A stretch of 64,000 nt of DNA from NCBI GenBank assembly GCA_038046645.1, contig JBBSVU010000016.1, forward strand, positions 652-64,651, read 5' to 3'. The translations under genes were made by a program, and so were the position numbers. Below the pieces are notes generated by a model. That model was given only the letters and a program-made list of their open reading frames with translations, did no database searches and was not told the origin of the DNA. This DNA is from an archaeon. Its GTDB lineage: Archaea; Iainarchaeota; Iainarchaeia; Iainarchaeales; 0-14-0-20-34-12. Below are positions 5,389 through 48,193 of the stretch, in pieces. The first letter of the stretch is position 1, and every line of letters starts with the position of its first letter.

Positions 5389-6450
5389 ATGCCACAGAAA
5401 TTAGCACTGAAAATTGCTTTAAGAGAAGCAGAGAAAATCCGTTTATTTTTATTATCGAATAACCTGCTTGATACTGCTTTTGAATTGAATAAGGATAAAA
5501 CAAACATATATTTCCCATTAAGTAGCCTGCCAAAAGGGAAAAAACAGGAATTAAGAAAGAAATTCCCAAATGCAGTTTTTGTCAAAGCAGGATTCAGAAG
5601 CAGGAATTTAAAGCCAAGGTCCCTAAAGGATGCATTGAAAGGAAAGCTTACTGGGGAGGAATTCAATTCTTTTATTTCTTCTTATGATACTGTTGGGACA
5701 ATTGCAATCCTTGAAATTCCTGAGGAATTAGAAAAAAAAGAGAAATTAATTGCAGAAACATTGCTTGATTTGCATCATAACATAAAGACTGTTTGCAAGA
5801 TTACAGGATCGCACCAAGGCCCATACCGGATTCAGCCTGTTGAAATCTTGGCAGGCCGGAAAACAACTGAAACATTGCATAAAGAAAAAGGCTGTTTATT
5901 CAAGACAGATGTTTCTAAAGCGTTTTTCTCCCCGCGCTTGTCGCACGAGAGGGAAAGAATTGCCAAGTTGATAAAAAATGGTGAAATTATTGGCGCTTTC
6001 TTTGCTGGTGTTGGCCCATACCCCATCATATTTGCAAAACATTCAAAAATGAAGAAAGCCTATGCGATTGAATTGAACAAAACGGCAGTTAAATATATGA
6101 AAGAAAACATTTCTTTGAATAATGTTGAAGGCAAGGTTGAGGCTATTTTAGGTGATGTCAATAATGAAGCAAAGAAATTCCCTAATTTTTTTGACCGTAT
6201 AGTAATGCCTCTTCCTAGGGATGCAGAGCATTTCCTTGATGCTGCTCTCTTCTCAATAAAATCCGGCGGGGTAATACATTTCTACCAGTTTGTAGATAAG
6301 GATGATCCATATTCCTTGCCATTGAAAAGAATAATGGAATCGGCAGAAAAATTCAAGAAGAAGGTGAAAATATTAAGAAAAGCAGAGGTAAGGAGCTTCT
6401 CTGCTTCAAAGATTCAGGTTGTGGTTGATTTTGAGGTTTTACATTTTTGA
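5389..6450 (+). CDS. trm5: tRNA (guanine37-N1)-methyltransferase Trm5/Taw22 family
   Basis: Met-10+ like SAM-methyltransferase signature 'FSPRLSHERERIAKLIKNGEIIGAFFAGVGPYPI', and C-terminus '...VRSFSASKIQVVVDFEV'. Confidence 0.8.
   Translation: MPQKLALKIALREAEKIRLFLLSNNLLDTAFELNKDKTNIYFPLSSLPKGKKQELRKKFPNAVFVKAGFRSRNLKPRSLKDALKGKLTGEEFNSFISSYDTVGTIAILEIPEELEKKEKLIAETLLDLHHNIKTVCKITGSHQGPYRIQPVEILAGRKTTETLHKEKGCLFKTDVSKAFFSPRLSHERERIAKLIKNGEIIGAFFAGVGPYPIIFAKHSKMKKAYAIELNKTAVKYMKENISLNNVEGKVEAILGDVNNEAKKFPNFFDRIVMPLPRDAEHFLDAALFSIKSGGVIHFYQFVDKDDPYSLPLKRIMESAEKFKKKVKILRKAEVRSFSASKIQVVVDFEVLHF
6375..6439 (+). repeat. trm5 3'-end repeat, copy 1 (functional gene end)
   Basis: Sequence 'aagaaaagcagaggtaaggagcttctctgcttcaaagattcaggttgtggttgattttgaggttt' encodes RKAEVRSFSASKIQVVVDFEV. 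Confidence 0.9.
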
Positions 6451-7736: not shown

Positions 7737-7847
7737 ATGACCTATATCATATATTCAATTTATAAATAGTATACTTAACATACTTCCAATTTTATATTAA
7801 TTATAATTAATATATTGCTAATAACTATTAATCTAGTAACTAACATA

Positions 7848-7912
7848 AAGAAAAGCAGAGGTAAGGAGCTTCTCCGCTTCAAAAATCCAGGTTGTTATTG
7901 ATTTTGAGGTTT
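7848..7912 (+). repeat. trm5 3'-end repeat, copy 2 (orphan fragment with its own stop at 7921-7923)
   Basis: Reads RKAEVRSFSASKIQVVIDFEVCPV* in frame. It differs from copy 1 by 5 substitutions over the aligned codons, and 4 of them are synonymous. Confidence 0.85.
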
Positions 7913-7973
7913 GTCCTGTATGACTCAAAGTGCATGGCTTGCATAAGCCTTTGTTGCTTTAGCTGTAAACTAT

Positions 7974-8986: not shown

Positions 8987-9024
8987 CTGCTTGTTCTGTC
9001 CTATTTTCTCTATTGCTAATTAGT

Positions 9025-9075
9025 AAAAAAGCAGAGGTAAGGAGTTTCTCTGCTTCAAAAATTCAGGTTGTGATT
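9025..9075 (+). repeat. trm5 3'-end repeat, copy 3 (orphan fragment with its own stop at 9091-9093)
   Basis: Reads KKAEVRSFSASKIQVVIYFTLY* in frame. Differences from copy 1 in the shared part are agc>agt and aag>aaa (both synonymous) and gtt>att (V>I). Confidence 0.8.
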
Positions 9076-9128
9076 TATTTTACTTTGTATTAATTTTTTT
9101 TGATTACTCTGCTTTTTTATTAATTTTT

Positions 9129-19844: not shown

Positions 19845-20387
19845 TTATTTATTTTCCCTATTTAACCTTGCCTTTTCTTTCCTTAACCATTCTTCAAATC
19901 TTTCATCATCCTTTATTATTTCTTCAAGAATTCCACTTACTATTTCATAATGTTTTTTGTTTTTCCCATCAAGCCTGAAATAAAGAGGCCCTTGCGAACT
20001 GGTTGAACCGCCAGAGCCAACCTTTAATATTAGGCTTATTGGCTTTGGATTTTCCAGAAAAGCACTCATTGCTTCTTTCGGTTTCAGGTATTCCGGATGT
20101 TTCTCAAGGTTTTTTATTGGCAAGCATACCTGGACAGAATCAGTTGCCCTCACATTTAGGAATCTTTTTAGCCCAGCATTCCTGCTTATGCCCACATTCC
20201 ATTTTTTATTAGACCTTTCATAATGCCCAGCATATTTTATTGGGCAATTGTAATGCATGTGCATATCTTGGGGCGATGCACCAAACCTGTTTCTCTTGAG
20301 TATCTGCCATACAATGCTCCTCTGAGCAGGCCCATGGTCTGCTTTCCGTCTTTCCCTTTTCATTCTAAATGGTTTTTTTGTAGGCAT
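19845..20387 (-). CDS. Hypothetical protein, paralogue A (basic N-terminus)
   Basis: Shares 'MPT.KKP..KRERRK..GP..RS', 'LNVR.TD.V.VC.PI.N..K.P.YL' and 'FRLDG' with 20445..20927. Confidence 0.55.
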   Translation of the reverse strand: MPTKKPFRMKRERRKADHGPAQRSIVWQILKRNRFGASPQDMHMHYNCPIKYAGHYERSNKKWNVGISRNAGLKRFLNVRATDSVQVCLPIKNLEKHPEYLKPKEAMSAFLENPKPISLILKVGSGGSTSSQGPLYFRLDGKNKKHYEIVSGILEEIIKDDERFEEWLRKEKARLNRENK

Positions 20388-20444: not shown

Positions 20445-20927
20445 TCACGTTTTTTTCATATCCCTTTGCGCTAATGTTTCAAGCACTTTGCCCACTATTT
20501 CAGGGTGCTTTGCCCCATCCAACCTAAAGAAAAGCGTTCCAAAAAAATCATTGCCCGGAACCTTTACAAGCAGGGTTATTTCTTCTTTATTTTCCCTAAA
20601 AATTTCCAAAGCTTTTTCAGACTCTAAATATGCCGGATTCTTTCCAATATTATATATTGGTGAGCATACCTCAACTTTATCAGTTTCCCTTACGTTTAGC
20701 ACTTCTTTTAATTCATCCAACCCTTTGAGATTATATTTGCTTGGCGCTCTCGCAAATATCCCGGAAAAATGTGTTGCACTGCTTTTTTTTGTAAGTACAC
20801 TTTGATATGGTGCGCCAAACCTGGCTTTTTTTGAAAAAAATCTGATAAGTTTGCTTCTTGAATTAGGCCCGTAGTTTACTTTCCTTCTTTCCCTTTTTCT
20901 TGCAACAGGTTTTTTTATAGTAGGCAT
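20445..20927 (-). CDS. Hypothetical protein, paralogue B (basic N-terminus)
   Basis: Tandem paralogue of 19845..20387. No known motif recognised. Confidence 0.55.
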   Translation of the reverse strand: MPTIKKPVARKRERRKVNYGPNSRSKLIRFFSKKARFGAPYQSVLTKKSSATHFSGIFARAPSKYNLKGLDELKEVLNVRETDKVEVCSPIYNIGKNPAYLESEKALEIFRENKEEITLLVKVPGNDFFGTLFFRLDGAKHPEIVGKVLETLAQRDMKKT

Positions 20928-20977: not shown

Positions 20978-21205
20978 TTAAATTAATTTTCCAAATTCTT
21001 CTCTTGTTATTTGCAGGTCTTTTTTGATTATTTTGAGCAATAATCCGGGCCCAATTGGTTCATTTCCGTGAATTGGGATTGTGGTTTTTCTTCCATCAGG
21101 ATGCGCAAATCTATGATGGCTTCCATCAATTCGTGTTTGTTCAAAACCAAGCTCTTTCAGGATTTTAATTAACTTACCTGCTTTTATTGCTTTTAATTTG
21201 CTCAC
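20978..21205 (-). CDS. hicA: HicA-family mRNA-interferase toxin
   Basis: 'LIKILKELGFEQTRIDGSHHRFAHPDGRKTTIPIHGNEPIGPGLLLKIIK'. The start codon is GTG (21203-21205). Confidence 0.8.
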   Translation of the reverse strand: MSKLKAIKAGKLIKILKELGFEQTRIDGSHHRFAHPDGRKTTIPIHGNEPIGPGLLLKIIKKDLQITREEFGKLI

Positions 21206-21328
21206 TCATAACGTCTGGCTTGCGGAAGCCATTGCCTTCAGGCAATGGTATCGTATTTTTTCTTGAAACATTAACAGTATTGTTCCGCAAGCCCACGCCT
21301 TTAGGCGTGGGTTCCCAGACGTTATGAC
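21203..21328 (+). repeat. Structured palindromic element E1 (126 nt)
   Basis: 13-bp outer stem 21206-21218/21315-21327. 9-bp inner stem 21219-21227/21283-21291. 8-bp tetraloop hairpins at 21229-21248 and 21292-21311. GC-rich relative to flanks. Confidence 0.65.
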
Positions 21329-34086: not shown

Positions 34087-34614
34087 TTAAATAGCTTTAT
34101 TGCCGGGCAAAGGTTCTTTGTCTTTTAATATAAAAACAAATCTGTCTTTCTGAAGGACAAAGAGCTCTTTGCCATCTTTTTCATATAAATTGCATAAATC
34201 CTTGTAATCAACCCTTCCCTTGTAATCATATCCTTCATTTTCAAGTTGGGAATTCATCTGCACAACAAGGGTAGCTGCAGAAGTTGAATCTCCTGAGTCC
34301 ACAATAAACATCTTTTTTGAATCAAACCAAATCAAGCCAACATTTCCAGTCATGGTATTATTGTATTCCATTTTAATGTTTGCTGTACCATATATGTCAA
34401 ATATCTGGTCAAAAGATTCAAGTGTTTTATCCTGCAGCACATCAAAATAACTGATTGATTTTTTCTGCTTTTCAATGCCTGCATCTGCTTTTATGAACTC
34501 TTGCGCAATAACTTCTCCTTGGACTGTTGCTTTTGGCAAAAAGGAACAGCCGCTTAACAGCAATGCCCCAAAAAGCAAAGAAATCAATAAAATCAAACTT
34601 AGGGTATTTTTCAT
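34087..34614 (-). CDS. Putative lipoprotein
   Basis: Lipobox-like 'ALLLSGCSF'. Overlaps the stop of the upstream giant gene by 4 nt. Confidence 0.5.
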   Translation of the reverse strand: MKNTLSLILLISLLFGALLLSGCSFLPKATVQGEVIAQEFIKADAGIEKQKKSISYFDVLQDKTLESFDQIFDIYGTANIKMEYNNTMTGNVGLIWFDSKKMFIVDSGDSTSAATLVVQMNSQLENEGYDYKGRVDYKDLCNLYEKDGKELFVLQKDRFVFILKDKEPLPGNKAI

Positions 34615-37600
34615 TGCAGCTCAACCCCGTAACTTTTCATCATATCATCAACATTCTTTTCCATTATGTCATACATTTTTGTCATTTTATCTGCATCAGC
34701 CTTGCTCTCTGCTATCTTTTTGTTTATTTCATATTCACCTTCAACAAAGGTAAAGATTTTTGTAAGTGCATCAGGATTATCCTTATATATTGAGACATCA
34801 TCCCTGTACCTTAATGCAACCTCCATTTTTTTTAATTTTAGGAATTTTTTTATGCTGTAAAAATAACTTTTAGTATCATTAATTGTTGGATTTTCCTTTT
34901 CAGCCATTTTTTGGGCAATATCTGCCTGTATGCTTGCAAACATTCCAAGCTCCCCAACCTCTGTTTCATAAAGTATGGATTGTTTTGCATTATCCCCGTT
35001 TAATGCATTTGTTGCATCAACTACCAAAGATAATCCACCAGAAGAAATTGTGCCAGCAGTCCAAAATGCTGCATCCTTTAATGCATTGAAAAATTTATGA
35101 TCCTCTGCCGTGATTTTTATCCCTAAAGCATTTGTGCCTGCGCTTACTACTTCACTTACCGAACCCATGCTGTCAGTAAATTCAATCAAAAGCGGAGCGT
35201 TATTCTTTAACTCTTCAACAGTTTTTATATTCGCTAGTTTATCAAGCTGTTCTGGCAGGTTCTTTATTGTTTCAACAAAGCCGATTGTCTTATACACTGC
35301 ATTTAATCCGCGGCCAACAACATTAAAAATCCCAATTTTTTTGGAATTTTGCAAGCTTCTTTTTCCTTTCCTTAATTCATAATCTGCAATCTCTCTCCAG
35401 TTGTGCGCATTTTCAGTATATCCTGTTAAATTCAGCCCGAAATAACTCAGCAAAGAATTATCATTATCATATTGCAAGACTGCATCAGCAGTCATTCCAG
35501 TAACATCAAGCCCTAAAACTTCCTGAGGGTTTATGCTTAATTTTTTTGATGTGCAGGTTTGCCCTTTTGGGATAAGGTTTCCAGCGCAGCATGTGCTGCT
35601 ATTTGGTGAATAAATTGTTCCAGTGCATTCAGGTTTGTCCATGCACTCCCCGCCAACACAATATGTGTTTATTGAACAATCATTATCAGTGCTGCAACCA
35701 GCTGAAGTCACACATAACTTAATCTCTGTAGCTCCGTACATTTCGCTAACACAATTTTGGCCTGAAGGGCAATCAGAATTTACGCAACAAGCATCTGTTC
35801 CCTGCCCGCCTATTTTTCCTTCGCAGCAGAATACCCGTTCTTTTTCATATTCCCAGACAATATCTCCGGAATTTGCACAGCCTGTCGGACTGTCTGAATG
35901 CATGATAGAACTATCTGAGATACAGCATTGCCCTGCACCAGTGCAACCGCAATCCTTCTGGCAGGTAGAACAATTTTCACCAGCATCAACATTACAAGTA
36001 CCATCGCCACAGTTTACTTCTTTTTGTGGTCCTTTTTCAATAATTTCATCTGCCTTTTTTTGGGCATCTCCGCCATATTCTTCCTTGTATCTTTGGCATT
36101 TTACATTTGTAGTTTGCCCTTCTTTTATGCTTGGATATAGCCACTTGTGAATTATTTCATCCAATACCACAATATTTTCAGTCATTTCGGTTGAATTTAC
36201 CTTTATTATTATATCTGATTCATAAGCAGAATATTTTACTGCCCCCCCAGGAATAAACAGCATGACCCTGCTGCCATCCTTTATCCATGCAGCTGCTTTT
36301 GTATCCTTAATTTTTATAATTCCCAAACTTACATCATTTTCACATTCCACTGCATTCAATCCATCAACCGAAAGCCAGAATGGGGCAGTTTCAGTATATT
36401 TCTCTTCCTTGCTTACACAATAATATTGTGAGTTATCGCACACAGCATCTGGCATGCTATTTTCCCCCAATACACAATCAAGATCCATGTTGCAGCATTT
36501 CTTCCCTGCTTGGCAGCAAACATAATTGCAATTCCCAGAACCGCATTCAGGATTTGATGTGCAGGATTCTCCATTTGATTTCAATATTGTTTCTTCTGTT
36601 TCCTTTTCATTAACACATTTGTGATTTACACATTTTTTTGTCAATAATGCACCTTGCGCATCTGAGCAATAATCACAGCAATCAACACCGTGCTGGAAAT
36701 TTTCTATATAAAACCCATCAGGGCAGCAATAGGTATCTACATTAGGATTTGCGCATTTTTTTCCACCTGTGCCAAAATCTCCACAATATACTGAAGAGCA
36801 TTCGTTATCATTTGAACATGCTTGGCAATATTGTTTTGTTCCGCTTGATGCAGTGCAATAATGCAAGTTAGTATTGCATGCTTGCCCACTAGAACAATCC
36901 GAATTATATTCACAGCAGGTTTTTCCTGCTTCACAGCAAACATAATTGCAGTTTCCTGAAGAACATTGCGAACCTGAGGAACAGGTTGCACCATCTGATT
37001 TTAATGTTACAGGACAGCTTCCGCAATCACCTGCACAAGAAGAGCAGGTTTCTGAACCATTGCATGAGCCATCTCCGCAGTATGTTGTAGGTGCAGATGT
37101 TACACAATAATGGTAAGAAGTATTGCATGTCTGCCCAGCAGAGCAATCCGAATTATATTCACAACAAGTCTTTCCAGCCTGGCAGCAAACATATCTGCAA
37201 TTTCCTGAACTGCATTGTGAATTTGATGAACATTGCGAGCCATTTGCTTTTTTTGCTTCCTGGCAAGCCCCGCAATCCGAAGGGCAATTGCTGCAAGTTT
37301 CCGTTTGTTTAGTTCCATTAACACAGGTCCCTTGGTCATATGCCTTTGGGCCACATTCTCCGTCTCCACAGTAACCATACTTCTTGAAATTATATTTCCA
37401 GCCACAGCCTGCACAAGAGGAATCTCCATTAAAAACAGCACTGATTGTTTCTCCCGCACTTATTGATACCTCACAGGTTGTTTGGTTGTTGCAGCTTTTT
37501 GCAGATGTAGTAATATCGCAATATCCACATTCAGGGTTTTCTCCATATTGGGTATATCCTCCATAAGTGTCATCAGCATATATTTTCAAGAAGCATCCTT

Positions 37601-37760
37601 GGTAATCTGAAGGTGCAGTTGTTTGATATATGTCATCAAAGGAATATCCGGCACCATCATTGCTGCCCCAAGGCAATGTCATTGTTTCTGCTGAACTAAA
37701 AATAGATAAAAATACAAGCAGAATAAAAGTTAAAATTATCCTAATTGCAGCCTTTCCCAT
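34611..37760 (-). CDS. Giant secreted cysteine-rich protein with helical Cys-free C-terminal ~320 aa
   Basis: Signal/anchor 'MGKAAIRIILTFILLVFLSIFSSAE' from ATG 37760 (track start 37817 is a TTG). Three 'C.S..QCSSGNC.YVCC.AGK.CC' modules and 'CGDG.C....E.CS.C..DCG.C' motifs. Confidence 0.75.
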   Translation of the reverse strand: MGKAAIRIILTFILLVFLSIFSSAETMTLPWGSNDGAGYSFDDIYQTTAPSDYQGCFLKIYADDTYGGYTQYGENPECGYCDITTSAKSCNNQTTCEVSISAGETISAVFNGDSSCAGCGWKYNFKKYGYCGDGECGPKAYDQGTCVNGTKQTETCSNCPSDCGACQEAKKANGSQCSSNSQCSSGNCRYVCCQAGKTCCEYNSDCSAGQTCNTSYHYCVTSAPTTYCGDGSCNGSETCSSCAGDCGSCPVTLKSDGATCSSGSQCSSGNCNYVCCEAGKTCCEYNSDCSSGQACNTNLHYCTASSGTKQYCQACSNDNECSSVYCGDFGTGGKKCANPNVDTYCCPDGFYIENFQHGVDCCDYCSDAQGALLTKKCVNHKCVNEKETEETILKSNGESCTSNPECGSGNCNYVCCQAGKKCCNMDLDCVLGENSMPDAVCDNSQYYCVSKEEKYTETAPFWLSVDGLNAVECENDVSLGIIKIKDTKAAAWIKDGSRVMLFIPGGAVKYSAYESDIIIKVNSTEMTENIVVLDEIIHKWLYPSIKEGQTTNVKCQRYKEEYGGDAQKKADEIIEKGPQKEVNCGDGTCNVDAGENCSTCQKDCGCTGAGQCCISDSSIMHSDSPTGCANSGDIVWEYEKERVFCCEGKIGGQGTDACCVNSDCPSGQNCVSEMYGATEIKLCVTSAGCSTDNDCSINTYCVGGECMDKPECTGTIYSPNSSTCCAGNLIPKGQTCTSKKLSINPQEVLGLDVTGMTADAVLQYDNDNSLLSYFGLNLTGYTENAHNWREIADYELRKGKRSLQNSKKIGIFNVVGRGLNAVYKTIGFVETIKNLPEQLDKLANIKTVEELKNNAPLLIEFTDSMGSVSEVVSAGTNALGIKITAEDHKFFNALKDAAFWTAGTISSGGLSLVVDATNALNGDNAKQSILYETEVGELGMFASIQADIAQKMAEKENPTINDTKSYFYSIKKFLKLKKMEVALRYRDDVSIYKDNPDALTKIFTFVEGEYEINKKIAESKADADKMTKMYDIMEKNVDDMMKSYGVELQ

Positions 37761-37803
37761 GCCAAATTTAAGTGCTTTGTAATATATATTTTTTTGCAAT
37801 GGA

Positions 37804-37974
37804 TTATTGCAAAACAAAGGTTATTTCATTCAGAAAAAACCCAAACATTATCAAAAAACCCAAAGGTTGGAATATTATTTCTTCCATTATGCGGTCTGCA
37901 AGCAGCGGGACAGCAGCAAAATAAAAAAATGCAGTGATAAATGCAGCCAAGGTTATCCTTTTTATTATTCCCAT
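37804..37974 (-). CDS. Possible 56-aa two-TM membrane peptide (not in ORF track)
   Basis: Manual translation: MGIIKRITLAAFITAFFYFAAVPLLADRIMEEIIFQPLGFLIMFGFFLNEITFVLQ*. A G-rich stretch precedes the ATG. Confidence 0.3.
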   Translation of the reverse strand: MGIIKRITLAAFITAFFYFAAVPLLADRIMEEIIFQPLGFLIMFGFFLNEITFVLQ

Positions 37975-40338: not shown

Positions 40339-40420
40339 AAATATATAAATAATACGGATTTGCCTGATAAGTACTCGTCTAAATCCTATATATACTTTTC
40401 CCTCAGCTATTACCATATAT

Positions 40421-40541
40421 CACTCACAACGTTTGGCTTGCAACGCCCATGTATTTATCTATAAATAAAGTGATATTTACAAATTTAATACTGTGATTTG
40501 CAAGCCTATGCCTAGAGGCATAGGTTCCCAAACGTTGTGAC
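40421..40541 (+). repeat. Structured palindromic element E2 (121 nt)
   Basis: 13-bp outer stem 40424-40436/40528-40540. 7-bp inner stem 40437-40443/40498-40504. 8-bp tetraloop hairpin 40505-40524. Same 'cac...ttc-stem-c' frame as E1. Confidence 0.65.
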
Positions 40542-40565: not shown

Positions 40566-41624
40566 TTGGCACAAAAAAAGAAACCTGAAAAAGTTGCACA
40601 TAAGAAAATTGACACGCAAATAAAGACATTGAGGAAAGGCCTTGAGAAAGAAGTGTCTTTTGCTAAAAAAGTCAGCAAGGCAACAAAAGAGCATGATGAG
40701 GAGCTTGAGGTATTGAAAAACGAGCTTGAAAAATTGAAAGCCAAGAAAAAGCGAAGTTATCTTTCTGATTATAACAAGTTTATGCGCTCCCAGATAAAAT
40801 CAGGCAAGACATTTAAGCAAGCTGTTGCTTTATGGAAGAAAAAGAAGAAAGATGATGAAAGGAAATCAAAAGGTTCAAAAAGAACAGCTTATAATATTTT
40901 CATTTCTTCCCAGCTTAAGCAGGGAAAAACAATGAAGCAGGCGATTGCAGCATGGAATGATTTCAAGAGTGGAAAAGTAAAGAAAAGGATTGTTTACAAG
41001 AGAATTTTATCAAAACCAAAGGTGGTATACAGAAACAAGGTAGTATATCGTAATAGAAATAAGCTTGTTTACAGAAACAAAATAGTGCCAAAAATAGTTT
41101 ATAGGAACAGAGTTGTAAAAACCGATGTTCCAAAAGTAATCCGCCGTAAGAAAACTATAAAACCGGTTGTTCCAAAAGTAGTTCATCGAAAAAGGATAAT
41201 TAAACCAGTGGAAAAACCAGAACCAAAACATGTTTCAAGGATTAGGGTTGTGAGAAGAAATGTCTTCCCTACCGAAGAATTGGAAAGGGTTTTTCTGAAG
41301 TACAAGCCGGAAACGCACATAGTTGAAAAGGAAGTGTTCCCAGCTGAAAAAATAAAAGAAGTGCTTGATTCAGTAATGCACTCAAAGCCTGAAACAGTTG
41401 TGCATTATGCAGATGATGTTTCAGATGAAGAAACCGCTTTAAGGATGCTTGAGATATATCTTAAAGAAATAGCTTGGTCAAACCATAAAGATAAGCTGGA
41501 TGTTGACCAAATTATAAACACATATTTCTATGCGCTTTCAAGGATAAAAAGAAAGGATATAGAAATGCATAAAATTTTAGAAGCTCTGAATAAGGAAAGG
41601 ATTAGAAAGGTTGAGGGTGAATGA
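40566..41624 (+). CDS. Lysine-rich repeat protein (possible nucleic-acid-binding)
   Basis: TTG start 7 nt after 'GGGGGA'. Duplicated '(S/T)(D/A)YN.F..SQ.K.GKT.KQA.A.W' motif. '(V/I)VYRN(K/R)' occurs five times, and 'VPKV..RK..IKPV' twice. Confidence 0.6.
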   Translation: MAQKKKPEKVAHKKIDTQIKTLRKGLEKEVSFAKKVSKATKEHDEELEVLKNELEKLKAKKKRSYLSDYNKFMRSQIKSGKTFKQAVALWKKKKKDDERKSKGSKRTAYNIFISSQLKQGKTMKQAIAAWNDFKSGKVKKRIVYKRILSKPKVVYRNKVVYRNRNKLVYRNKIVPKIVYRNRVVKTDVPKVIRRKKTIKPVVPKVVHRKRIIKPVEKPEPKHVSRIRVVRRNVFPTEELERVFLKYKPETHIVEKEVFPAEKIKEVLDSVMHSKPETVVHYADDVSDEETALRMLEIYLKEIAWSNHKDKLDVDQIINTYFYALSRIKRKDIEMHKILEALNKERIRKVEGE

Positions 41625-45965: not shown

Positions 45966-46798
45966 CTTTTCCCCTTCGCGATTAAATATTCAATAATTTT
46001 TTCAGGTATGTTTACGCCGGTAGGCAAAATACTATTCTTGAATTCCATATTGTGGTTTACCTCGTGCACAAGCAACCCATTTTCTGATTCCATTACATCA
46101 ATTGCCAATATTCCTGAACCAACTGCTTTTGCAGCCTTAATGCAAATCTCATTCAATTCATCATCAACCATGCAGTTTTCAGTCTTTCCGCCTCTTGCAG
46201 TATTTGTTATCCAATGGTCAGATTTTCTGTAAATTGCATAGATTGTTTCCTCGCCGATAACGCATGCCCTTATATCCCTGTCAGGCTTTTTTATCAATTC
46301 CTGAATGTAAAAAATTGAGTGAAGGTAATTTCCCAATGTTTTTTTGTGTTCAATCAATGCTTCTGCAGCATTCCTGTCATTTACTTTTGCCAGCAATCTC
46401 GCCCATGACCCAATAACCGGCTTCATTACACAAGGATAGCCGATCTCTTCAATAGCATTAAGTGCACTTTCCTCAGAAAAAGCAATAATTGTTTTTGGGG
46501 TTGGAACGTTGTTTTCTTTTAATGCTATTGAGGTCAATGCCTTGTCTCCGCATATCCTTATTGTGTCAAATGAATTCACAGTTTTTATTCCATAACTTTC
46601 AAGAAACCTGCTTGCATATAAGCTCCTTGAGAATGAAACATCCCTGTCCAGGACTATGTCATAATCCAATGATTTTTCAAGAGAGAACATCAACCCATCG
46701 GAATTTACATTCTCCAAAATGACATTCTTCCTTTTTGCTTCATCAAAAAGCAACATTTCCTCTTTCCTCAATTTTGACAACAACATTCCAATCTTCAT
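45962..46798 (-). CDS. lysX: LysW-alpha-aminoadipate ligase (RimK/ATP-grasp)
   Basis: ATP-grasp motifs 'YPCVMKPVIGSWARL' and 'GLLVHEVNHNMEF'. Lies adjacent to lysW. Confidence 0.85.
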   Translation of the reverse strand: MKIGMLLSKLRKEEMLLFDEAKRKNVILENVNSDGLMFSLEKSLDYDIVLDRDVSFSRSLYASRFLESYGIKTVNSFDTIRICGDKALTSIALKENNVPTPKTIIAFSEESALNAIEEIGYPCVMKPVIGSWARLLAKVNDRNAAEALIEHKKTLGNYLHSIFYIQELIKKPDRDIRACVIGEETIYAIYRKSDHWITNTARGGKTENCMVDDELNEICIKAAKAVGSGILAIDVMESENGLLVHEVNHNMEFKNSILPTGVNIPEKIIEYLIAKGKR

Positions 46799-47963: not shown

Positions 47964-48052
47964 AAGAATACTCCTTCTATTCCCTTATTATTTTTTATGA
48001 CCGAAATCCGACATAATAAAACATTTTTGTCTGATATAAAACAAAACCAAAT

Positions 48053-48193
48053 CACTGACGCCCCATGGGTGCGCGGAAGCCGCACCCCTTGGGGTGCGAA
48101 GGATCGCACCCATTTCATTCCTTTCTGTATTTGGCTTCCGCCTGAAGCCCACTCTACTAAAGACGCCATGGGCTTCAGCCTATGGAGCGTCAC
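48053..48193 (+). repeat. Structured element E3 (141 nt), divergent relative of E1/E2
   Basis: Outer stem 48056-48066/48182-48192. Twin hairpins share the identical stem gggtgcg/cgcaccc (48067-48087 and 48092-48111). gcggaagcc (48073-48081) pairs with ggcttccgc (48133-48141). 10-bp hairpin 48142-48178. Confidence 0.55.

What the first reader, a model, noticed from the sequence alone, without database searches (positions are those of the whole stretch)
40421..40541. Second copy of the element: every stem difference from E1 is a compensatory double change
Aligning E2 to E1 gives these results:
- The outer stem differs at two positions on each arm (tcaTaacgtCtgg > tcaCaacgtTtgg and ccaGacgttAtga > ccaAacgttGtga). 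These are exactly the paired partners (T-A > C-G and C-G > T-A).
- The 3' hairpin changes ccCaCgcc/ggcGtGgg to ccTaTgcc/ggcAtAgg, which are again two paired partners.
- That gives 4 of 4 stem differences compensated, while the internal unpaired regions are unalignable.
- The unpaired 'cac' 5' tag, the 'ttc' linker and the terminal 'c' are identical.

This indicates selection on pairing itself (RNA or ssDNA hairpin) rather than on primary sequence. Alternatively, sub-families may have co-evolved termini.

E2 sits in the divergent promoter region between a relE/RHH pair and a Lys-rich protein gene.
Basis: seen in the sequence. Interest (0 to 1): 0.7.

Follow-up and report, generated by a model that had tools for sequence, protein, structure and literature searches.

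The report
Miniature IS200/IS605-type hairpin transposon copy
The compensatory stem changes are real, and the element is a 118-base gene-less mobile DNA of the IS200/IS605 (hairpin-recognising, single-strand) transposon family in a DPANN archaeon, which makes it a new member of a known kind rather than a new RNA.

Summary
E2 (40424-40541) and E1 (21206-21328) share a three-way fold, P1/P2/P3. Across 5 distinct copies, 11 of 28 core pairs show double changes, none shows a one-sided change, and only one cell is unpaired.

It is mobile DNA:
- One copy sits in-frame inside a thioredoxin reductase gene, and an 83%-identical orthologue lacks exactly those 120 nt.
- E1 splits an overlapping hicB-stop/hicA-start (TAGTG).
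Every insertion lies 3' of T-N-A-C, and the element ends in TGAC.

The 3' hairpin with its AAGCC box is the right-end hairpin of tnpB/tnpA IS200/IS605 elements. There, the base before AAG pairs with the N of the terminal TNAC in 59 of 61 cases. The elements here obey this rule at the right end. At the left end the guide predicts the flanking target in 4 of 5 independent insertions.

The inferred mechanism is mobilisation in trans by a Y1/HUH TnpA through single-stranded DNA. No transposase was found.

Two points are unexplained:
- The outer stem P1 is absent from full-length relatives.
- E2's left end looks dead, yet its stems are invariant against an orthologue roughly 18-24% diverged.

The parts
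40420..40423 (+). Host target tetranucleotide TCAC (left cleavage site, not part of the element).
   Evidence: All 5 independent insertions have T-N-A-C here. An empty orthologous site was recovered for the L003 copy.
40424..40541 (+). Element E2, 118 nt, from TCA... to ...TGAC.
   Evidence: The covariance model scores it at 123.8 bits.
40424..40436 (+). P1 5' arm, TCACAACGTTTGG.
   Evidence: Pairs with 40528-40540. It is 13 of 13 Watson-Crick.
40437..40443 (+). P2 5' arm, CTTGCAA.
   Evidence: Pairs with 40498-40504. Positions 6-7 covary among copies as GG/CC, AA/TT and GC/GC.
40444..40497 (+). Variable interior. It holds a degenerate left box (AACGCC) and an A+T-rich hairpin, TATTTATCTATAAATA (40452-40467), in place of the G+C hairpin L of E1, L003 and L007.
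   Evidence: Against the orthologue it shows 8 mismatches plus a 3-nt indel.
40498..40504 (+). P2 3' arm, TTGCAAG. Its last four bases, CAAG (40501-40504), are the right-end guide sequence.
   Evidence: The guide CAAG predicts the cleavage site TGAC. This rule holds in 59 of 61 tnpB-linked right ends.
40505..40524 (+). P3, which is hairpin R (the right subterminal palindrome): CCTATGCC-TAGA-GGCATAGG.
   Evidence: 5 of its 8 pairs covary among copies. The same hairpin type lies at the 3' end of tnpB genes.
40525..40527 (+). Unpaired linker TTC.
   Evidence: Invariant in all copies of the E1 family.
40528..40540 (+). P1 3' arm, CCAAACGTTGTGA.
40538..40541 (+). Right cleavage-site tetranucleotide TGAC (the last 4 nt of the element).
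21206..21328 (+). Element E1, 123 nt, inserted 3' of TCAC (21202-21205) between hicB and hicA. Internal features: left guide GAAG 21225-21228; hairpin L 21229-21248; right guide CAAG 21288-21291; hairpin R 21292-21311; TGAC 21325-21328.
   Evidence: Removing the element restores the overlapping TAG/GTG (TAGTG).
48056..48193 (+). Element E3, 138 nt, a distant relative with the same plan. It is inserted 3' of TCAC (48052-48055), ends in TCAC, and both guides are GAAG. It lies between the aconitase-small-subunit-like gene and the isocitrate/homoisocitrate dehydrogenase gene.
   Evidence: The covariance model hit is 24.2 bits, E 0.002. Sequence and fold. Neighbouring genes.
40566..41624 (+). Lys-rich protein gene 25 nt downstream of E2. 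E2 probably lies in its 5' leader.
   Evidence: A TATA-like box at 40388-40395, conserved in position in L014, lies about 28 nt upstream of E2. This is read from the sequence and is an inference.

Best explanation
E2 is one copy of a small family (118-125 nt) of gene-less mobile DNA elements in Diapherotrites (DPANN) archaea. The family derives from, and is moved in trans by, an IS200/IS605-type element.

Shown:
- The copies are precise insertions 3' of a T-N-A-C tetranucleotide, with no target duplication beyond the shared AC.
- Each element ends in TGAC (TCAC in the relative E3).
- Each carries two similar G+C hairpins, both preceded by an (N)AAGCC box.
- The right hairpin, its box and the terminal TNAC are the same module that ends tnpB/tnpA elements.
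- The base before AAG is complementary to the N of the cleavage tetranucleotide at the right end. At the left end the same holds for the flanking target in 4 of 5 insertions.

Inferred:
- A Y1/HUH TnpA dimer binds the two hairpins on the single-stranded top strand.
- It reads the cleavage sites through the guide bases, excises a single-stranded circle, and pastes it 3' of a matching TNAC ('peel and paste').
- Hairpin shape matters to the enzyme and hairpin sequence does not, so stem changes survive only as compensated pairs.

The outer stem P1 and helix P2 are an addition peculiar to the miniature element. They may hold the two ends together, or make the insert a compact hairpin that is harmless when transcribed. 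This last point is speculation.

E2 itself has a degenerate left guide and left hairpin, so it is probably no longer mobile. Even so, its stems have been kept unchanged in situ.
For: Insertion and boundaries
- In L003 the thioredoxin reductase ORF reads through the element.
- The closest homologue, P0030, lacks exactly 40 aa, and its DNA (L026, 83% identical) lacks exactly 120 nt after ...TTGAC.
- The alignment to PDB thioredoxin reductase splits at the insert.
- The empty-site reconstruction for E1 gives TAGTG.
- The L007/L008 reconstruction restores a 67-aa ORF.
- The left flanks are TCAC, TCAC, TGAC, TTAC and TCAC. The element ends are TGAC or TCAC.

Link to the family
- The pattern AAGCCNNNGCCTTNAGGCNNNGGT found 98 viral-contig loci.
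- In those loci the motif overlaps the stop of ORFs that carry OrfB_IS605 plus the TNB domain, in 8 of 8 tested.
- L073 also encodes an IS200-type TnpA with the HVH motif.
- In 63 of 84 distinct motifs a TNAC ends exactly 7 nt after the hairpin.
- Guide NAAG against TNAC is complementary in 59 of 61.
- The same rule fits the elements here. Right end: CAAG-TGAC in all E1-family copies and GAAG-TCAC in E3. Left end: E1 GAAG-TCAC, L003 CAAG-TGAC, L007 AAAG-TTAC and E3 GAAG-TCAC. The chance of at least 4 of 5 is about 0.016.
- The two hairpins of each element are direct repeats, with alignment scores of 22-32 in E1, L003, L007 and L001 against shuffle means of 12-14. L007's score of 22 only equals its best shuffle, and E2 scores 18, inside its shuffle range.
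- The IS608 mechanism, its guide/cleavage pairing and the lack of duplication are described in PMC3201880 and PMC5934647. TCAC is a known target motif of the family (PMC10278001).

Covariation.
Against: - No tnpA or tnpB was found in the 64-kb window, nor in about 110 kb of related Diapherotrites loci examined by Pfam scans or precomputed Pfam labels.
- A perfect 13-bp terminal inverted repeat is not a feature of IS200/IS605 elements or of PATEs.
- In the fold, P1 pairs with three bases of the right cleavage site and P2 pairs with the right guide. This would compete with the active complex.
- A P2-like GGCTTG was seen upstream of only 5 of 51 full-length right ends.
- The E2/L001 left guide (AACG/AAAG) does not match its TCAC flank.
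- Only 5 distinct copies plus E3 were recovered, and two of them (E2 and L001) are orthologues.
Confidence: 0.75

Rival explanations
1. E2 is a classical double-strand MITE. The 13-bp P1 arms are terminal inverted repeats bound by a DDE transposase, the AC at both junctions is a 2-bp target duplication, and the 'compensation' reflects co-evolution of both ends with the transposase.
For: The terminal repeats are perfect, and AC is present at both junctions in all copies. SMR-A elements of Haloquadratum (about 110 bp, inverted terminal repeats, no duplication) show that such elements exist in archaea (PMC3119063).
Against: - It does not explain the invariant T at position -4.
- It does not explain why the left guide base tracks the flank (4 of 5).
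- It does not explain covariation in the internal hairpin P3.
- It does not explain the identity of hairpin, box and TGAC with tnpB right ends.
- With a 2-bp duplication the ends would read TCA.../...TG, which is not symmetric.
- The P1 sequence differs strongly in L003 while P3 is the same as in E1.
Confidence: 0.07
2. The selected entity is an RNA. On this reading E2 is an exapted cis-acting leader structure of the Lys-rich gene mRNA, or a stand-alone guide-RNA-like transcript built from a transposon right end. Pairing is then maintained at the RNA level.
For: - Between the window and the orthologous copy in L014, all 56 stem positions, the linker and the terminal C are identical. In contrast the interior has 8 mismatches plus an indel in 54 nt, the 5' flank 10 of 42, and the CDS 17-19%. 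At 18% divergence, 0.82^56 is about 1.5e-5.
- E2's left end looks inactive (sequence).
- A TATA-like box lies about 28 nt upstream in both genomes (inference).
- Related palindromic repeats are known to act in mRNA and to show compensatory changes (PMC3184786).
Against: - There is no Rfam match.
- The core helices have no G.U pairs or one-sided changes.
- Family members lie in both orientations relative to the host transcript: E1, L007 and E3 are antisense, E2 and L003 sense.
- The fold ends exactly at the insertion boundaries, so it is a property of the mobile unit.
- No expression data are available.
Confidence: 0.15
3. There is no selection on P1. Palindrome self-correction by template switching during replication copies a change in one arm onto the other, which gives apparent compensation.
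For: Only Watson-Crick pairs are seen and there are no intermediates. This is what templated correction would produce.
Against: Under this model orthologous copies should show paired double changes at roughly half the neutral rate. None is seen in 28 pairs between E2 and L014, for which the expected probability is about 0.004. L007 retains an A.C mismatch in P1.
Confidence: 0.08
4. E2 is an integron attC-like recombination site folded as single-stranded DNA.
For: The size falls within the attC range as recalled from memory, which was not checked against a paper here. P1 reads TCAYAAC...GTTRTGA, which resembles the R''/R' boxes, and toxin-antitoxin genes lie nearby.
Against: - AAC/GTT is absent in L003 and E3.
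- P1 has no extrahelical bases or central bubble.
- The copies are not in a cassette array, being 19 kb apart among housekeeping genes.
- No integrase is present.
- The copies interrupt genes at TNAC, not at G|TT.
Confidence: 0.02

Closest known systems
IS200/IS605 family insertion sequences (paradigm IS608) and their gene-less derivatives, the PATEs (palindrome-associated transposable elements)
   Same: - Insertion 3' of a specific tetranucleotide with no target duplication.
- The element ends in a related tetranucleotide.
- Two similar subterminal hairpins lie on the same strand.
- A 4-nt guide 5' of each hairpin foot pairs with the cleavage site.
- The end-to-hairpin distance is longer on the left (about 23 nt) than on the right (about 13-17 nt).
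- The right hairpin module is shared with tnpB/tnpA elements (PMC3201880; PMC3119063).
   Different: - It has a perfect 13-bp terminal inverted repeat (P1) and a second long-range helix (P2) that close the whole element into a three-way junction. PATEs are defined as lacking terminal repeats.
- Both hairpins are of the right-end type.
- The hairpin-to-end spacer is 13-17 nt, against 7 nt in most full-length relatives.
- No cognate transposase was located.
SMR-A small mobile repeats of Haloquadratum walsbyi (PMC3119063)
   Same: About 110 bp, prominent inverted terminal repeats, no target duplication, archaeal host, no transposase gene, and a mode of mobilisation that is described as enigmatic.
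   Different: There is no sequence relation. SMR-A elements target the palindromes of other elements. Here the target is a TNAC tetranucleotide in genes and operons, and the ends can be tied to IS200/IS605.
Bacterial palindromic repeats that fold in mRNA or insert in frame (ERIC, bcr1, Rickettsia palindromic elements; review PMC3184786)
   Same: About 100-150 nt, folding into a long stem, compensatory changes reported, found within operons, and sometimes inserted in frame in protein genes (as in the L003 thioredoxin reductase).
   Different: Those elements have TA or 5-bp duplications and no guide/hairpin module. Their constraint is thought to act on RNA.
REP elements and REPINs mobilised by RAYT (Y1 HUH) transposases (PMC2817692)
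   Same: Hairpins with a conserved flanking tetranucleotide, an inferred Y1 HUH partner, and pairs of hairpins that form larger folds.
   Different: REPs are 20-40 nt, intergenic and highly repeated, and REPINs are inverted pairs. Here the two hairpins are direct repeats and insertion is into a TNAC target. The Pseudomonas REPs caught by my scan (L006, L009-L013) share only GGCTTGC/GCAAGCC, by chance.

Membership tests
IS200/IS605-derived non-autonomous element (PATE-like) | Inserts 3' of a specific tetra- or pentanucleotide without target-site duplication. | tested here: met
   5 of 5 independent insertions follow T-N-A-C. The empty orthologous site in L026 differs by exactly 120 nt. Only AC is shared between the flank and the element end.
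IS200/IS605-derived non-autonomous element (PATE-like) | Subterminal hairpins at both ends, on the same strand and similar to each other. | tested here: met
   The box plus hairpin L and the box plus hairpin R are direct repeats in E1, L003, L007 and L001. In E2 the left one is degenerate.
IS200/IS605-derived non-autonomous element (PATE-like) | Cleavage sites are read by a 4-nt guide 5' of the hairpin foot, giving guide/cleavage-site complementarity. | tested here: met
   The rule was calibrated on tnpB-linked right ends at 59 of 61. All right ends here obey it, as do 4 of 5 left ends. E2/L001 do not.
IS200/IS605-derived non-autonomous element (PATE-like) | Ends are shared with an autonomous element that encodes TnpA (Y1 HUH) and/or TnpB. 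| tested here: inconclusive
   The right-end module is shared with tnpB/tnpA elements in viral contigs. No autonomous element with the same left end or P1 was found, and none from the host lineage.
IS200/IS605-derived non-autonomous element (PATE-like) | No terminal inverted repeats. | tested here: not met
   The terminal inverted repeat is a perfect 13 bp. This is the respect in which the element departs from the family definition (PMC3119063).
IS200/IS605-derived non-autonomous element (PATE-like) | A cognate Y1 transposase is present in the same genome. | not testable with these tools
   Only a 64-kb window was available.
Classical TIR MITE (DDE transposase) | Terminal inverted repeats flanked by a target-site duplication of fixed length. 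| tested here: not met
   The repeats are present, but there is no duplication beyond AC. The flanks are not symmetric, with T fixed at -4 on the left only.
Integron attC site | Conserved R''(..AAC)/R'(GTT..) boxes, extrahelical bases, cassette arrays and a nearby intI. | tested here: not met
   AAC/GTT is absent in L003 and E3. P1 is perfectly paired. There is no array and no integrase.
Archaeal bulge-helix-bulge intron | Two 3-nt bulges separated by a 4-bp helix at the exon-intron junctions. | tested here: not met
   P1 is 13 bp without bulges, and the flanks cannot pair. The L003 copy is kept in frame and free of stops, as expected if it is translated.
Described RNA families (Rfam 15) | A match at or near the gathering score. 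| tested here: not met
   There was no hit in the window or in the loci at gathering score. In E-value mode the best hit was 17 bits to unrelated miRNA models.

The most novel reading that the evidence does not exclude
E2 is a domesticated transposon end. Its left end is dead, but the right-end module and the P1/P2 closure have been held invariant over roughly 18-24% flank and coding divergence. On this reading the transcript does a job for the host or for a TnpB-like nuclease in trans. It could be a structured 5' leader controlling the Lys-rich, origin-linked protein gene, or a stand-alone guide-RNA-like molecule whose guide is the adjacent flank. More broadly, the terminal stem P1 might define a new sub-type of single-strand transposon in which the whole element must fold into a three-way junction to move.
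Probability: 0.15. Interest if true: 0.6.

Novelty: new member of a known kind. Interest (0 to 1): 0.4.

Why it matters
- It shows that the covariation is not evidence of a new RNA gene. It is the signature of a hairpin-reading, single-strand DNA transposition system.
- It documents such a miniature element in DPANN (Diapherotrites) archaea, and I did not find one reported there before.
- The guide-to-target rule (NAAG against TNAC) recovered here from sequence alone gives a simple way to recognise and orient such elements and to tell live copies from dead ones.
- The in-frame copy inside thioredoxin reductase, and the copy that splits a toxin-antitoxin pair, show how these elements reshape small genomes.
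- The invariant stems of a seemingly dead copy are a concrete lead to exaptation.

Tried and rejected
- **Known RNA and tRNA.** Rfam at gathering and in E-value mode, and tRNA and tmRNA scans, found nothing.
- **Six-frame peptide search.** A concatenated six-frame translation of four copies, searched against the 5.8-billion protein set to find ORFs that run through further copies, gave no hit even to the known L003 protein. That search was wasted.
- **Representative protein search.** The open frame of E1 gave only a spurious tandem-repeat protein.
- **Plasmids and phages.** blastn of E1 against both gave nothing.
- **Metagenome scan.** It returned mostly Pseudomonas REP sequences that share GGCTTGC...GCAAGCC by chance.
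- **Covariance-model scans.** About 160 kb of other Diapherotrites loci gave no new copies, only identical copies from the same population. The apparent variants in L033, L035 and L036 are homopolymer errors of low-coverage assemblies.
- **Extending the window.** The attempt through the look-up of encoding contigs returned only short contigs.
- **GC skew.** As a test of strand bias it follows gene orientation and is uninformative.
- **Other inverted repeats.** Those in the window, such as 46449-46531, lie in coding sequence and were judged to be chance.
- **Rejected readings.** A bulge-helix-bulge intron, an integron attC site and a replication-origin repeat were each considered and rejected on sequence features.

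Full report
**1. Observation**

The reference copy E1 is at 21203-21328. Both fold into the same three-way junction:
- an outer 13-bp stem, P1;
- a second helix, P2 (CTTGC../..GCAAG);
- an 8-bp hairpin with a 4-nt loop, P3;
- a TTC linker.

Folding energies are 7 to 10 standard deviations below shuffles on either strand, as RNA or as DNA.

The four compensated differences in P1 and P3 are real. It also has one uncompensated C.T at its inner end in E2.

**2. More copies**

One genome scan and one metagenome scan with degenerate patterns recovered three further copies:
- L001, identical to L014, is from Candidatus Diapherotrites CG08. It is the orthologue of the E2 locus.
- L003 is from an uncultured archaeon syntenic with Diapherotrites genomes.
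- L007, identical to L008, is from a metagenome.

The other hits were chance matches, including Pseudomonas REPs.

On the five distinct sequences (A1):
- 94.5% of cells are paired.
- 15 pairs carry double changes.
- 0 of 500 column shuffles reach any of the five measures.
- Slid registers give 27-38% pairing.
- In P1, P2 and P3 together, 11 of 28 pairs covary, none varies on one side only, and one cell is unpaired (A.C in L007).

The variants of P1, P2 and P3 assort independently among copies, so these are several separate events and not two sub-families.

A covariance model (R1) found a third, distant element in the window. This is E3 at 48056-48193, with 24 bits and E 0.002. It has the same plan.

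**3. It is inserted DNA**

*L003.* The element lies inside a thioredoxin reductase gene, and the 352-aa ORF reads through it. The closest homologue, P0030, is 85% identical and lacks exactly 40 residues. Its DNA (L026) is 83% identical and lacks exactly 120 nt...ATAATTGAC|AATGCA against ...ATTGTTGAC[TCA...TTTGAC]AGCGGC. The alignment to PDB thioredoxin reductases breaks at the insert.

*E1.* It sits between hicB and hicA (Pfam). Removing 21206-21328 restores a one-base overlap of the hicB stop and the hicA start, TAGTG.

*L007/L008.* The insert shifts the frame at the 3' end of a small gene. Removing it restores a 67-aa ORF.

*E3.* It lies immediately after the stop codon of an aconitase-small-subunit-like gene, inside a lysine-biosynthesis operon.

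*Junctions.* In all five independent insertions the left flank is T-N-A-C (TCAC, TCAC, TGAC, TTAC, TCAC). The element ends in TGAC, or in TCAC for E3. In E1 it is the GTG start codon of hicA.

**4. Which kind of mobile DNA**

Each element contains two direct copies of a module made of a box (N)AAGCC followed by a G+C hairpin with a TTYA loop. One copy lies inside the P2 loop (hairpin L) and the other is P3 (hairpin R). Alignment scores are 22-32 in E1, L003, L007 and L001, against shuffle means of 12-14; L007's score only equals its best shuffle, and E2 (18) is inside its shuffle range.

A scan of viral contigs with the hairpin-R pattern found 98 loci. In those loci:
- The motif overlaps the stop codon of roughly 390-430-aa ORFs that carry OrfB_IS605 and the TnpB zinc-ribbon (TNB) domain, in 8 of 8 tested.
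- L073 also encodes an IS200-type TnpA with the HVH motif.
- In 63 of 84 distinct motifs a T(G/C/T)AC ends exactly 7 nt after the hairpin.
- The base preceding AAG is complementary to the variable base of that tetranucleotide in 59 of 61 cases: CAAG-TGAC 42, GAAG-TCAC 14, AAAG-TTAC 3.

This is the arrangement established for IS608. There, a 4-nt guide 5' of each hairpin foot base-pairs with the cleavage tetranucleotide. The left cleavage site belongs to the flank and the right one to the element. Insertion is 3' of the target without duplication (PMC3201880, PMC5934647). AAAG/TTAC is the IS608 left-end pair itself, and TCAC is a known target motif in the family (PMC10278001).

The elements here obey the rule:
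- Right end: CAAG-TGAC in E1, E2, L001, L003 and L007, and GAAG-TCAC in E3.
- Left end, where the guide predicts the host flank: E1 GAAG-TCAC, L003 CAAG-TGAC, L007 AAAG-TTAC, E3 GAAG-TCAC.
- That is 4 of 5 independent insertions, with a chance probability of about 0.016.

I take this as strong evidence that the family is moved by a Y1/HUH TnpA through a single-stranded intermediate. It is a PATE-like derivative (PMC3119063).

The compensated changes in P3 then have a simple explanation: the enzyme reads hairpin shape. The NNN positions of the same hairpin covary across the viral set as well.

**5. What does not fit**

- IS200/IS605 elements and PATEs have no terminal inverted repeats, but this family has a perfect 13-bp one.
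- P1 pairs with three bases of the right cleavage site and P2 pairs with the right guide. The closed junction should therefore compete with the active complex.
- A P2-like partner was seen upstream of only 5 of 51 full-length right ends, so P1 and P2 are specific to the miniature element. Their covariation still calls for a reason. Candidates are end synapsis, stability of the excised circle, or making the insert an inert hairpin in transcripts. I could not test any of these.
- No transposase gene was found in the window, in L003, or in about 100 kb of related loci.

**6. E2 in particular**

Its left box is degenerate (AACG, or AAAG in the orthologue, against a TCAC flank). The G+C hairpin L is replaced by an A+T-rich one. 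By the family's own rule, the left end looks dead.

Against the orthologous copy in L014:

| Region | Differences |
|---|---|
| 56 stem positions, linker and terminal C | none |
| Interior (54 nt) | 8 mismatches plus a 3-nt indel |
| P3 loop | 2 of 4 |
| 5' flank | 10 of 42 |
| Downstream gene | 17-19% |

At 18% divergence the chance of no change in 56 positions is about 1.5e-5. Palindrome self-correction would predict paired double changes, and none is seen.

This points to constraint in situ. A TATA-like box about 28 nt upstream in both genomes suggests that E2 is the 5' leader of the Lys-rich gene mRNA. That is an inference from sequence only.

**7. Distribution**

The family is rare. No further copies were found in about 160 kb of other Diapherotrites loci, in plasmid or phage collections, or as ORFs among 1.84 billion representative proteins.

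**8. Verdict**

The element is a new member of a known kind, a miniature IS200/IS605-type element, found here in a DPANN archaeon. Two things remain unexplained: the terminal stem, and the invariant stems of a seemingly immobile copy.

Noticed in passing
window 48056-48193: A third, distant element (E3) with the same plan: P1 TGACGCCCCATGG/CCTATGGAGCGTCA, guides GAAG, inserted after TCAC and ending in TCAC. It lies right at the stop codon of the aconitase-small-subunit-like gene, inside the lysine (AAA pathway) operon. Its end, GCGTCAC, equals the right end of the tnpA-tnpB element in L073.
   Followed up: partly
window 6369-6450, 7842-7923, 9018-9099: Three copies (76-85% identical) of an 82-nt repeat containing a hairpin, AAAAGCAGAG...CTCTGCTT. 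Each lies just downstream of a consecutive minus-strand gene: an AAA_14 ATPase, a Fic-domain protein and a 1428-aa protein. It may be a shared terminator or another small repeat family.
   Followed up: no
window 40566-41624 and homologues P0001-P0028: The Lys-rich protein has no Pfam match. It carries two repeats of the form Y-N-x-F-x-x-x-Q-x-K-x-G-K-T-x-K-Q-A-x-A-x-W and a run of VYRN repeats. All named homologues are from Diapherotrites. In L016, L018 and L019 the gene directly follows cdc6/orc1, which hints at a chromatin or origin-associated role.
   Followed up: partly
window 19845-20387 and 20445-20927: Two tandem paralogous genes (180 and 160 aa, both starting MPTKKP/MPTIKKP...KRERRK) with no Pfam match, each preceded by a repeated 69-nt segment (20315-20383 and 20852-20920).
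   Followed up: no
L014 10790-10860 (minus strand), just upstream of the E2 orthologue: Two G+C-rich hairpins in direct order, CTGCG-T-GGTGC GAA GCACC-CGCAG and ATAGGGGC GGA GCCCCTAT, with fold z of -4.8. The first resembles the GGTGCGAAG..CACC segment of E3. This may be a remnant of another hairpin element, and it lies at a contig end.
   Followed up: partly
window 34611-37817: A 1068-aa Cys-rich, probably secreted protein with internal repeats of about 250-420 nt (repeat families D1/D2 at 36493-37277).
   Followed up: no
L040-L137 (viral contigs): In tnpB elements with the AAGCC hairpin, the tnpB reading frame ends inside the hairpin (C-terminus ...TSPCL*). The spacer from hairpin to element end is a fixed 7 nt, and guide/cleavage-site complementarity holds in 59 of 61. 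L063 carries three copies of the right-end module spaced 2.4 kb apart.
   Followed up: partly
L019 1-414: The CDC48-like AAA ATPase gene of a related Diapherotrites genome carries an intein with a LAGLIDADG domain, according to precomputed Pfam labels.
   Followed up: no
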